Below are positions 48,106-49,763 of a stretch of 64,000 bases of DNA, in pieces (the first letter of the stretch is position 1; every line of letters begins with the position of its first letter). The notes below the pieces were generated by a model, which saw only the letters and a program-made list of their open reading frames with translations, ran no database searches and was not told the origin of the DNA. Source of the DNA: Gammaproteobacteria bacterium (GTDB taxonomy: Bacteria; Pseudomonadota; Gammaproteobacteria; UBA4575); contig OZ242174.1 of the NCBI GenBank assembly GCA_965205685.1, positions 285,231 to 349,230 on the forward strand. Reading direction: 5' to 3'. The translations under genes and the position numbers were made by a program.

Positions 48106-48918
48106 ATGATGTTTAACGATGCAAATATTCAACTTGGCACTGCGTTCCCGCCAGTCGAACCGAAGGATACCCGAAAAGGCAGGACCTATTCCGCAGATAT
48201 CGACATAGGTCAGGGACACCGCGTCAGGGCTTTCTTGAAGCTTCTCAGCATCGAAGATATTGCAAGGGAAGCACTTTGCGCAACCCTTGCCCGTTTGCTG
48301 GGTTTGCCAATCGCCCAGGCGTACTACGTGACCGTGGATCCTTCCTACGTGGATGGCCAGGGGATGGGTAACGCGCAAAATGTTGGATTTGGCTTAAAAA
48401 ATGATTGTCCAACTTTTGCTATCAGGAACGCTGATCTCGATCACTTAGTCCATACATGGAAGGAACCGGATTTGACCAATTGCGCCGTATTTGATGAATG
48501 GATTTTTAATCGTGACCGACTTCCAAATAACCTGATATTCGACAGCACTGGGGTCTATTGGTTGATCGACCATGATGAAGCGTTGCCGAATTATGCTTCG
48601 CCAAGTGCTCCTGCAAACTCTCAATTGTTACGCTTGTTGTCAGAACCAAAATCTGAGATTGAGTTGTGGAGATTACGAGAGGATGCCATGAAGCGGGTAC
48701 AGCAATACAAGGAAATCGATTGGAAAGAAGTTATGAAATTGCTCAGGCCTGACAACTTGCCCGGCAGTGAAATCCACTATGCCCGCTATATTGAATTTCT
48801 CCGGAACAGGCTGCCTGCCATGCACGGCATCATCACCACCAGTATAGGTATCCAGCAAAGACAGCTGGACCTGGGGAACCGCCAAGTTCCGAATGACAAA
48901 TCCGAGGAGGAGACATGA
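48106..48918 (+). CDS. hypothetical protein with atypical kinase-like catalytic-loop motifs (low GC)
   Basis: FNRDRLPNNLIF resembles the HRDLKPxN catalytic loop and WLIDHDEAL is DFG-like. There is a Gly-rich DIDIGQGHRV segment. GC ~45% against a ~65% background. Confidence 0.45.
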   Translation: MMFNDANIQLGTAFPPVEPKDTRKGRTYSADIDIGQGHRVRAFLKLLSIEDIAREALCATLARLLGLPIAQAYYVTVDPSYVDGQGMGNAQNVGFGLKNDCPTFAIRNADLDHLVHTWKEPDLTNCAVFDEWIFNRDRLPNNLIFDSTGVYWLIDHDEALPNYASPSAPANSQLLRLLSEPKSEIELWRLREDAMKRVQQYKEIDWKEVMKLLRPDNLPGSEIHYARYIEFLRNRLPAMHGIITTSIGIQQRQLDLGNRQVPNDKSEEET

Positions 48919-49763
48919 AATCCCAATTCCCCAAACTCCCCGAATACGGGCTTTCCTGGCGAAGCATCCAGGTGGAACCCATCCCCCATTCCGGTGAAAG
49001 GATTTCAGTTGGCACGGTCGTGAAAGGAGAAGACCAGTCATTGATTGTCGCCAAGCTACTCCCCGTTCAAAAGCTCAAGAAGATTTACGGAGAGGAGTTT
49101 GGCAAACGCATCGGAGATGCACTGCAGTTCTGTGTCGATACCGCTGAAAAATTCTATTCGAAGAATCCACTGTCTTCCAACTGGACTCCGCCATTGGACG
49201 GATTTTACCTGGGAAATGAGAAAGCAACCCTGGCCAAGAACATTGATGACGGATTGCTGGTGTCGGCCATGCACAGTTCATCCTTCAGCGTCGCTTTCAA
49301 TGCCGAGAAAGTGAAGATTGCGAAAAAGTCCGACCTGTCAGCGCCTGAAGACTGGAGAAAACAGATCATCGAAGCCGTTCAAAAGAACAGGCATGACTTC
49401 GATGACTGTTTCCAGCGCAAGTTCCAGATCCATGGCTCAGGCGTTCCTTTCAAGTTCGATTTCATATCCGAAAAATATGCTGCTCAGTTTGATGCGATTT
49501 CTGAGAACGGAAGTTTCCAGCACGCCCTTGTACGTGCACAGAGCAAGTTATGGCAGCTCGACCGGTTGAGAGATGGAGATGCATTGTTTAAACCGACATT
49601 GTGCGAACTGCTTTTGAGAATCCCGGAAGAGCACAGCGGCTCGGGTGAGGTAAGTGAATTTGTGGGTGAGTTAACCCATGAAGCCTCCAAGCGTAATATC
49701 AGTCTGTACACCTCGAATTCATCGGTCGAAGCTGCCCACCACTTGATTGAAACCGCGGCATAG
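48915..49763 (+). CDS. hypothetical protein, translationally coupled to the kinase-like gene
   Basis: 4-nt overlap ATGA with the upstream gene. 282 aa with no recognisable family. Low GC. Confidence 0.45.
   Translation: MKSQFPKLPEYGLSWRSIQVEPIPHSGERISVGTVVKGEDQSLIVAKLLPVQKLKKIYGEEFGKRIGDALQFCVDTAEKFYSKNPLSSNWTPPLDGFYLGNEKATLAKNIDDGLLVSAMHSSSFSVAFNAEKVKIAKKSDLSAPEDWRKQIIEAVQKNRHDFDDCFQRKFQIHGSGVPFKFDFISEKYAAQFDAISENGSFQHALVRAQSKLWQLDRLRDGDALFKPTLCELLLRIPEEHSGSGEVSEFVGELTHEASKRNISLYTSNSSVEAAHHLIETAA

What the first reader, a model, noticed from the sequence alone, without database searches (positions are those of the whole stretch)
48106..49763. Low-GC two-gene operon encoding an atypical kinase-like protein and an unknown partner
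GC drops to ~45% for exactly these two overlapping genes (ATGA junction). The first protein has a kinase-like catalytic loop (NRDRLPNN, compare HRDLKPxN and the HipA DxHxKN loop) and a downstream IDHDE segment, without other recognisable motifs. The second is unrelated to known families. They sit directly after hipBA and before GNAT/AbiE. This looks like a candidate new toxin-antitoxin or phage-defence pair, possibly a HipT-like mini-kinase system.
Basis: partly seen in the sequence, partly recalled or inferred. Interest (0 to 1): 0.8.

Follow-up and report, generated by a model that had tools for sequence, protein, structure and literature searches.

The report
HipA-like kinase defence pair, unannotated partner
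These two overlapping genes form a small mobile cassette encoding a HipA-like protein kinase and a partner protein, a sister branch of a recently validated kinase-toxin/antitoxin anti-phage system, with a partner family that no current annotation library recognises.

Summary
The two ORFs are real: g1 at 48106-48918 (270 aa) and g2 at 48915-49763 (282 aa), joined by an ATGA overlap. GC is 48-49%, not about 45%, and low GC continues into neighbouring genes.

g1 is a Pfam HipA_2 (PF20613) kinase. It hits PADLOC PDC-M66A, has a HipA/CtkA/PI4K-type fold, and keeps an intact catalytic set. Its D137 aligns with the residue whose mutation abolished defence in E. coli DS-6.

g2 belongs to a large family (611 clusters at 50% identity) with no Pfam, NCBIfam or PADLOC model. 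In 31 of 33 loci it lies directly downstream of such a kinase, including on phages and plasmids. Its C-terminal half is restriction-endonuclease-like without a conserved active site, and resembles the DS-6B C-terminal domain (E 2e-4). N-terminal similarity to DUF3037 is not significant.

Synteny shows that 47910-49768 moves as one cassette inside a variable TA/defence island. It carries its own promoter-like site and a conserved palindrome.

Verdict: this is a sister subtype of the known HipA_2-DUF3037 (PDC-M66/DS-6/HipAD) system, not a new kind and not HipT-like. Function is inferred by homology only.

The parts
47910..49768 (+). Whole mobile cassette: 190-nt upstream spacer, g1 and g2
   Evidence: The blastn homology blocks with L001 (window 47910-49768), L002, L003 and L004 begin and end at these borders, while the flanking content differs. 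L001 lacks hipBA. L003 lacks GNAT/AbiE/Fic/RES/RloB. L004 is in a different neighbourhood.
48001..48020 (.). Perfect 9-2-9 palindrome AATGCACAG-AC-CTGTGCATT overlapping the -35 box by 2 nt; candidate operator
   Evidence: Found by the repeat finder. It is unique in the window even with 3 mismatches (0.02 expected by chance). It is exact in L002 and L003 and has one mismatch in L001, at the same position upstream of the g1 homolog, while the central 2 nt and the nearby spacer vary. What binds it is not known.
48019..48046 (+). Sigma-70-like promoter TTGACA-16-TAGACT (10 of 12 matches), about 60 nt upstream of the g1 start
   Evidence: Consensus scan. The count of such sites in the region is not above chance (3 found, 1.9 expected). 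Both hexamers are conserved in L001-L003 while the 16-nt spacer has diverged. Function is inferred.
48106..48918 (+). g1: HipA_2-family (PF20613) Ser/Thr-type protein kinase, 270 aa; predicted toxic effector
48915..49763 (+). g2: two-domain partner protein, 282 aa; predicted neutraliser/sensor (antitoxin-like). N-domain about 1-135 with the W15..E21-P22..S26-G27-E28 signature; C-domain about 143-282 with a restriction-endonuclease-like fold lacking a conserved active site

Best explanation
The region is a self-contained, horizontally mobile two-gene module of the HipA_2-kinase/partner type, the same kind as PADLOC PDC-M66, E. coli DS-6/HipAD and the kinase-DUF3037 pair in the Retron-Sda1 operon. 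It is a sister subtype whose partner protein has diverged beyond current family models.

Proposed mechanism:
1. Both genes are transcribed from the cassette's own promoter (48019-48046) and are translationally coupled through the ATGA overlap.
2. g1 is an active Ser/Thr-type protein kinase that is toxic when free. By analogy with HipA and HipT it would phosphorylate an essential host protein, causing growth arrest or abortive infection.
3. g2 binds and holds the kinase inactive in uninfected cells. Phage infection releases it, through a trigger that is not known.
4. g2, or the g1-g2 complex, may also repress the operon at the conserved palindrome that overlaps the -35 box, possibly through its catalytically dead restriction-endonuclease-like C-domain.

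Shown here: kinase family, fold and intact catalytic residues; obligate kinase-partner gene linkage; cassette mobility; carriage on phages and plasmids; conserved promoter and palindrome.

Inferred by homology or analogy: kinase toxicity, neutralisation by g2, the defence role, the operator function, and the kinase substrate.

For: Experimental precedent: DS-6 D139A loses defence (PMC13092281). In Retron-Sda1, deleting the kinase abolishes defence against Bas51 and deleting the DUF3037 gene is toxic (PMC12548924).

Same architecture: genuine DUF3037 systems have a kinase of 243-249 aa followed by a partner of 275-282 aa with a 4-bp overlap. Here the kinase is 270 aa and the partner 282 aa, also with a 4-bp overlap.

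Linkage: 31 of 33 loci with a g2-family gene have the kinase directly upstream, and no other gene family recurs around them.

Mobility: the cassette borders are 47910-49768, and it is present with or without hipBA and with or without the downstream modules. The pair also occurs on Alteromonas phage P24, an Acinetobacter phage, 5 IMG/VR contigs, and Marinobacter and Rahnella plasmids.

Context: it lies in an island with HipBA, AbiE, Fic, RES and RloB/AAA_21.

Kinase decay: the kinase is damaged or lost while the partner persists in L004, L015 and L020.

Partner similarity to DS-6B: a collinear alignment of about 235 columns is recovered in every profile pair tested, and the C-domain comparison gives E 2e-4 against a shuffle maximum score of 17.

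Regulation: the palindrome and promoter hexamers are conserved.
Against: There is no experiment on this subtype. Every functional statement rests on homology to a sister subfamily whose kinases share only about 23-39% local identity with g1.

The partner does not match DUF3037, DUF1829 or PDC-M66B in any of 64 and 130 members scanned.

Full-length profile-profile scores are alignment-dependent. They range from 19 to 38, while shuffled controls reach 17-22. The N-domain comparison is within noise: 14.6 against a control maximum of 20.3.

The kinase-decay pattern is biased, because the loci were found through the partner.

The number of promoter-like sites in the region is not above chance. Palindrome conservation rests on only four fairly close loci.

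The kinase substrate and the phage trigger are unknown even for the validated relatives.
Confidence: 0.7

Rival explanations
1. It is a plain addiction-type toxin-antitoxin module, with a kinase toxin and a protein antitoxin, that stabilises the genomic island or mobile elements and has no role in phage defence.
For: The island is rich in classical TA modules: HipBA, AbiE, Fic, RES and an HTH antitoxin-like gene. The cassette is carried on plasmids. Toxin-first erosion is typical of chromosomal TA loci (PMC13617665).
Against: The sister systems DS-6 and the Retron-Sda1 pair do protect against phages, and that protection depends on the kinase. The pair sits in moron-like or early-region positions on temperate phages. 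The two roles are not mutually exclusive.
Confidence: 0.15
2. The roles are reversed. g2 is the effector, a PD-(D/E)xK nuclease, and g1 is a sensor or regulator kinase that switches it on by phosphorylation.
For: The g2 C-domain has the alpha-beta-beta-beta-alpha-beta restriction-endonuclease topology. Its structural matches are nucleases: CdiA-CT, BsoBI, XPF/Hef, Can2 and NucC. E231 is 82% conserved and K/R211 is common.
Against: The canonical catalytic positions at the start of beta2 and within beta3 (residues 176-193) are variable across the family, and no D...(D/E)xK set is conserved. The best structural match, the ERCC1 central domain, is itself a non-catalytic version of the fold. In the sister system, deleting the partner is toxic and deleting the kinase abolishes defence, which is the opposite of this model. 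It is the kinase that decays first in related loci.
Confidence: 0.08
3. It is a housekeeping or regulatory kinase with an accessory subunit, for example small-molecule or lipid phosphorylation. The fold is shared with PI3/4-kinases, CotH and Kdo kinase.
Against: The pair is patchy and mobile. It is absent, decayed or relocated among close relatives, and it is found on phages and plasmids in changing neighbourhoods. The best sequence relatives are defence or TA kinases. No metabolic genes are linked to it.
Confidence: 0.04

Closest known systems
PDC-M66 (PADLOC candidate) = DS-6 (DefensePredictor, Science 2026, PMC13092281) = HipAD (Brenes & Laub 2025, Cell Host Microbe 33:1004; cited, not read) = the HipA-like kinase + DUF3037 pair in the Retron-Sda1 operon (PLoS Biol 2025, PMC12548924)
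   Same: Both use a Pfam HipA_2/PDC-M66A kinase with the same FDxWIxNxDR...N...IDH catalytic signature, and g1 D137 corresponds to DS-6A D139. Both have the kinase gene first and a partner of about 275-282 aa second, joined by a 4-bp overlap. Both partners are two-domain proteins, and their C-terminal halves align (E 2e-4). Both are carried by prophages and mobile elements.
   Different: The g2-type partner is not detected by the PF11236 (DUF3037), DUF1829 or PDC-M66B models in any member scanned. Its N-domain similarity to DUF3037 is not significant. The kinases form a separate clade and lack the 6-residue TLT[DE]xGG insert in the catalytic loop. g1 is about 20-25 aa longer. This subtype has not been tested experimentally.
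Canonical HipBA (HipA_C PF07804 + Couple_hipA; HipB HTH antitoxin). One copy lies immediately upstream at 46088-47915
   Different: g1 does not hit HipA_C or Couple_hipA. It has no significant profile similarity to the neighbouring HipA. It is 270 aa against 412 aa. The gene order is reversed, with the toxin first. The partner is not an HTH protein. The cassette occurs without hipBA in L001, L004 and most other loci.
HipBST (HipT mini-kinase + HipS + HipB)
   Different: HipT is a HipA_C-family kinase whose missing N-subdomain is supplied by HipS, and HipB is the regulator. Here there are only two genes, neither is HipS- or HipB-like, and the kinase belongs to another Pfam family.
Helicobacter pylori CtkA (PDB 3akj)
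   Different: Sequence identity is only 14%. No equivalent partner gene was examined here. CtkA is described in its PDB entry as a proinflammatory kinase, not as a TA or defence toxin.

Membership tests
Pfam PF20613 HipA_2 (HipA-like kinase): g1 | Score above the curated gathering threshold | tested here: met
   42.8 bits against a cutoff of 27, E 4.8e-11. All 58 homologs but one carry a precomputed PF20613 hit.
Pfam PF20613 HipA_2 (HipA-like kinase): g1 | HipA/PI3-4K-type protein kinase fold | tested here: met
Pfam PF20613 HipA_2 (HipA-like kinase): g1 | Complete catalytic set: beta3 Lys, alphaC Glu, catalytic Asp, Asn, and metal-binding Asp | tested here: met
   K45, E55, D137, N142 and D155 are invariant in 31 sequences. 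They are also conserved across both kinase subtypes.
PDC-M66 / DS-6 / HipAD system | PDC-M66A-type kinase | tested here: met
   g1 hits at 3.2e-5. All 31 family members hit PDC-M66A, best 1.9e-8. hhalign to DS-6A gives 94.9%, E 4e-8.
PDC-M66 / DS-6 / HipAD system | Partner carries an N-terminal DUF3037 domain (PF11236 / PDC-M66B) | tested here: not met
   No hit at E<=1 for g2, for 64 diverse members or for 130 members. Cross HMM searches are non-significant. The N-domain profile-profile score of 14.6 is within the shuffle range, maximum 20.3. There is only a motif-level resemblance: g2 P22/E28 against DUF3037 P14/E20.
PDC-M66 / DS-6 / HipAD system | Partner C-terminal domain of the DS-6B type (reported as DUF1829-like) | tested here: inconclusive
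   The C-domain profiles align over 120 columns, score 28.1, E 2.2e-4, against a shuffle maximum of 17.2. The g2 C-domain has a restriction-endonuclease-like fold and a BFVD match to a DUF1828-domain protein. There is no direct Pfam DUF1829 hit. The paper's own DUF1829 assignment for DS-6B has HHpred probability of only 0.78.
PDC-M66 / DS-6 / HipAD system | Gene order kinase then partner, same strand, overlapping stop/start, and a self-contained pair | tested here: met
   Window. 31 of 33 loci. Genuine DUF3037 loci have identical geometry.
PDC-M66 / DS-6 / HipAD system | Kinase toxic, partner neutralises it, and anti-phage protection depends on the kinase | not testable with these tools
   This is known only for DS-6 and the Retron-Sda1 pair. 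The only indirect hint here is kinase-first decay in L004, L015 and L020, which is subject to ascertainment bias.
Canonical HipBA / HipBST | HipA_C (PF07804) kinase domain, with an HTH HipB antitoxin (and HipS for HipBST) | tested here: not met
   g1 hits only HipA_2 at E<=1. g1 profile against the adjacent HipA gives probability 1.4%. g2 has no HTH hit. No third conserved gene is present.
PD-(D/E)xK nuclease superfamily: g2 C-domain | Restriction-endonuclease-like alpha-beta-beta-beta-alpha-beta core fold | tested here: inconclusive
PD-(D/E)xK nuclease superfamily: g2 C-domain | Conserved D...(D/E)xK catalytic residues | tested here: not met
   Positions 176-193 (beta2/beta3) are variable in 64 diverse members. 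Only E231 (82%) and K/R211 are frequent.

The most novel reading that the evidence does not exclude
The g2-type partner may not be a diverged DUF3037 protein. It may instead carry a different N-terminal sensor domain, with the W..EP..SGE signature, grafted onto a shared dead-nuclease C-domain. If so, HipA_2 kinases have at least two co-evolving partner classes that respond to different phage cues, and the g1/g2 type would be an unrecognised, widespread defence subtype: 611 clusters, in marine Gammaproteobacteria, Acinetobacter and Alteromonas phages, and plasmids. In this reading the partner also acts as the operator-binding autorepressor at the conserved palindrome.
Probability: 0.35. Interest if true: 0.55.

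Novelty: new variant of a known kind. Interest (0 to 1): 0.4.

Why it matters
Kinase-based toxin/antitoxin defence (HipA_2 + DUF3037) was validated only in 2025-2026, and neither its substrate nor its phage trigger is known. This window shows a second, large partner family tied to the same kinase family. Pfam, NCBIfam and PADLOC all miss it, so current defence-annotation pipelines would overlook the system.

Comparing the two partner types offers a natural experiment. They share a C-domain, have different or very diverged N-domains, and are paired with a kinase that has or lacks a catalytic-loop insert. That contrast could show which parts inhibit the kinase and which sense infection.

In practical terms, an HMM built from alignment A3 or A6 would add several hundred clusters to defence-system catalogues. 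The finding is an extension of a known kind, not a new principle.

Tried and rejected
- PDB sequence searches gave nothing useful. g1 gave only a catalytic-loop match to CDK7 at E about 0.7, and g2 gave nothing.
- The literature search for 'HipAD'/'PDC-M66' returned only unrelated hits. The Brenes & Laub 2025 paper is not held, so HipAD details come second-hand from PMC13092281.
- The Retron-Sda1 operon sequence in the supplement is truncated before the DUF3037 gene. The DS-6A and DS-6B sequences were taken from the DefensePredictor supplement instead.
- The search for related loci with the very diverse alignment A3 failed because it has no conserved peptide stretch. The narrower alignment A1 was used instead.
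- I first read the A3-versus-A4 hhalign result (E 1.2e-4) as good evidence that g2 is a full-length DUF3037 homolog. Larger alignments, resampled alignments and domain-wise tests showed that only the C-domain signal beats the controls, so that claim was downgraded.
- The idea that g1/g2 works together with the adjacent hipBA as a four-gene system was rejected. The cassette occurs without hipBA in L001, L004 and nearly all other loci.
- The idea that PADLOC PDC-M03 covers this family was rejected. Only 1 of 130 partners hits PDC-M03B.
- No tRNA or integrase marks the island borders within the window.
- No intrinsic terminator was found after g2.

Full report
**1. Observation**

The window contains two same-strand ORFs: g1 at 48106-48918 (270 aa) and g2 at 48915-49763 (282 aa). 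They overlap in the sequence ATGA, and a strong Shine-Dalgarno sequence (GGAGGAG) precedes the g2 start.

GC is 48.3% for g1 and 49.4% for g2, against 61.1% for the window. That is a clear drop, but not to about 45%. It is also not limited to these genes. The upstream spacer is 46.8%, GNAT 50.2%, AbiEii 51.7%, and the genes out to about 57.4 kb are 44-55%.

The neighbours are as described:
- An HTH protein (46088-46684) and a canonical HipA with Couple_hipA + HipA_C (46677-47915) lie upstream.
- GNAT, AbiEii/AbiEi, a Fic protein, an HTH protein, a HEPN/RES-NTD1+RES protein, RloB and an AAA_21 ATPase lie downstream.

**2. The kinase (g1)**

g1 scores above the Pfam gathering threshold for HipA_2, PF20613 (42.8 bits against 27). 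It matches PADLOC PDC-M66A (3e-5) and phrog_3162. All 31 aligned family members hit PDC-M66A.

The residues expected of an active kinase are invariant: K45, E55, D137-R138, N142 and D155-H156.

g1 is not a copy of the canonical HipA next door. It does not hit HipA_C, and the profile comparison with that HipA is not significant.

**3. The partner (g2)**

g2 has no hit in Pfam, NCBIfam, PADLOC or PDB sequences. It matches phrog_21150 over its full length (6e-30). A profile search of 1.84 billion cluster representatives found 611 relatives, nearly all 275-305 aa and matching end to end.

The model (pLDDT 83, pTM 0.77) has two domains. The C-terminal domain (about 143-282) has the alpha-beta-beta-beta-alpha-beta topology of restriction-endonuclease-like proteins. 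Its structural matches are moderate:
- BFVD matches to two full-length phage proteins, a DUF1828-domain protein and phage restriction endonucleases.

The positions where a PD-(D/E)xK site would lie are variable across the family, so an active nuclease is unlikely. The best-conserved part of the family is the N-terminal signature W15..E21-P22..S26-G27-E28.

**4. The two genes are one unit**

In 31 of 33 loci that encode a g2 relative, a HipA_2-type kinase ORF lies directly upstream on the same strand, usually with a 4-bp overlap. No other gene family recurs around them. The 33 loci are:
- 24 genome loci;
- 2 GenBank phages, Alteromonas phage P24 and Acinetobacter phage vB_AbaS_qsb1;
- 2 plasmids, from Marinobacter and Rahnella;
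- 5 IMG/VR contigs.

DNA comparison with the closest genomes shows that window 47910-49768 moves as a block:
- L001 has it without hipBA.
- L003 has hipBA plus the cassette, followed at once by the conserved flank that in the window only resumes at 57572.
- L004 has it in another neighbourhood.
- L024 keeps only half of g2.

The region from about 45.9 to 57.6 kb is therefore a variable TA/defence island, and g1-g2 is one independent module within it.

**5. Regulation signals**

The 190-nt spacer carries a sigma-70-like site, TTGACA-16-TAGACT at 48019-48046. A perfect palindrome, AATGCACAG-AC-CTGTGCATT at 48001-48020, overlaps its -35 box by 2 nt.

The palindrome is unique in the window even with three mismatches allowed. 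It recurs at the same place in L002 and L003 exactly, and in L001 with one mismatch. The sequence between the two hexamers has diverged over the same loci.

I read this as the cassette's own promoter with an operator. That is an inference from four fairly close loci.

**6. What is known**

HipA-like kinase + DUF3037 is PADLOC candidate PDC-M66. In the Retron-Sda1 operon, deleting the kinase abolished defence against phage Bas51 and deleting the DUF3037 gene was toxic. The retron parts were dispensable (PMC12548924).

DefensePredictor validated the E. coli pair as DS-6, also named HipAD by Brenes & Laub 2025. D139A in the kinase abolished defence, and DS-6B was annotated as DUF3037 (7-125) + DUF1829 (163-260, HHpred probability 0.78) (PMC13092281).

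In this database, genuine DUF3037 genes from Idiomarina and Sphingomonas lie downstream of PF20613 kinases with a 4-bp overlap, and they are 282 aa long.

**7. Relation to that system**

The g1 family profile aligns with DS-6A at 94.9% probability (E 4e-8), and g1 D137 falls on DS-6A D139.

A neighbour-joining tree of 17 kinases splits cleanly by partner type. Kinases with a DUF3037 partner carry a 6-residue insert (TLT[DE]xGG) in the catalytic loop that kinases with a g2-type partner lack.

For the partners, no member of the g2 family (64 and 130 scanned) hits DUF3037, DUF1829 or PDC-M66B. The profile-profile evidence is as follows:
- My first comparison gave a collinear 238-column alignment at E 1.2e-4, well above reversed, shuffled and unrelated controls.
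- Larger and resampled alignments gave scores of 19-33, against shuffle maxima of 17-22, always with the same end-to-end alignment.
- Split by domain, the C-terminal halves align significantly (28.1, E 2e-4; shuffle maximum 17.2). The N-terminal halves do not (14.6; shuffle maximum 20.3).

I conclude that the C-domains are probably homologous. Whether the N-domain is a very diverged DUF3037 domain or a different domain remains open.

**8. Mechanism proposed**

By homology with DS-6 and the Retron-Sda1 pair, g1 is the toxic kinase effector and g2 its neutralising partner and likely infection sensor. The two genes are translationally coupled and probably autoregulated at the palindrome.

The kinase substrate and the trigger are unknown even for the validated relatives.

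One indirect hint of kinase toxicity is that the kinase is damaged or lost while the partner persists. It is 5'-truncated in L004, has a premature stop in L015, and is absent in L020. These loci were found through the partner, so the opposite pattern could not have been seen.

**9. Verdict**

It is wrong that the kind is new, and wrong that it is HipT-like.

It is a new variant, a sister subtype with an unannotated partner family, of a known and recently validated kind.

Confidence in the mechanism class is 0.7. Interest is 0.4.

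Noticed in passing
window 45900-57570: This is a variable TA/defence island between conserved flanks. It holds HipB-like HTH + HipA, the g1-g2 cassette, GNAT, AbiEii/AbiEi, a 497-aa Fic protein, an HTH_3 protein, a HEPN/RES-NTD1+RES protein, RloB and an AAA_21 ATPase. Close relatives carry different subsets: L003 has only hipBA plus the cassette, L001 lacks hipBA, and L002 keeps RloB/AAA_21. No tRNA is present in the window.
   Followed up: partly
L004:7243-8004; L015:7204-8000; L020:7812-8001; L024:7681-8465: The kinase decays while the partner persists. 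In L004 the kinase has lost its 5' end. In L015 it has a premature stop at about residue 200. In L020 there is an intact orphan partner directly after an unrelated 812-aa gene. In L024 there is no kinase and only the first 156 residues of the partner. This fits toxin-first erosion, but the loci were found through the partner.
   Followed up: partly
L025:38-628; L027:2874-3428 (and the Retron-Sda1 operon, PMC12548924): In Alteromonas phage P24 and the Marinobacter plasmid, an HTH gene directly precedes the kinase-partner pair. This gives a three-gene form like the HTH-HipA-DUF3037 layout of Retron-Sda1. The window's cassette has no such gene, only the palindrome-bearing spacer.
   Followed up: partly
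L029:4432-5124 and the equivalent ORF in L030-L033: All five IMG/VR viral contigs share a conserved ORF of about 230 aa immediately upstream of the kinase. It was not identified.
   Followed up: no
kinase alignment, g1 residues 138-140: Kinases paired with genuine DUF3037 partners (E. coli DS-6A, Idiomarina, Sphingomonas) carry a 6-residue insert, TLT[DE]xGG, between the catalytic DR and the Asn of the catalytic loop. All 14 kinases paired with g2-type partners lack it. This could serve as a simple marker for the two subtypes. Only three DUF3037-type kinases were sampled.
   Followed up: partly
g2 family members (alignments A3, A6); g1 and L026:3163-3990: One of 130 partner-family members hits PADLOC PDC-M03B (7e-5), and the kinases hit PDC-M03A weakly (0.035 and 0.0035). 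PDC-M03 may be a further, more distant kinase-partner family.
   Followed up: partly
one member of alignment A3 (probably the 352-aa protein P0219): A single partner-family member also carries a DUF3606 domain (3e-15), which suggests an occasional C-terminal fusion.
   Followed up: no
window 46088-46684: The HipB-like antitoxin is unusually long at 198 aa. Its HTH_3 domain covers only residues 12-62, followed by an extension of about 130 aa, and the gene overlaps the hipA start (46677) by 8 nt.
   Followed up: no
window 54080-54361 (-): A small 93-aa ORF with the lowest GC in the island (43.6%) is convergent with the HTH gene at 53774-54073. Homologous DNA is present in L001 and L024. It may be the toxin partner of that HTH protein.
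   Followed up: no
g1 residues 24-27 (K-G-x-T); DS-6A residues 23-26 (E-G-S-T): A nearly invariant G-x-T/S motif sits in the N-terminal beta-hairpin of the kinases, where the glycine-rich loop would lie. In HipA and HipT, as I recall from the literature, Ser residues in this loop are autophosphorylated to switch the kinase off. The same might apply here.
   Followed up: no
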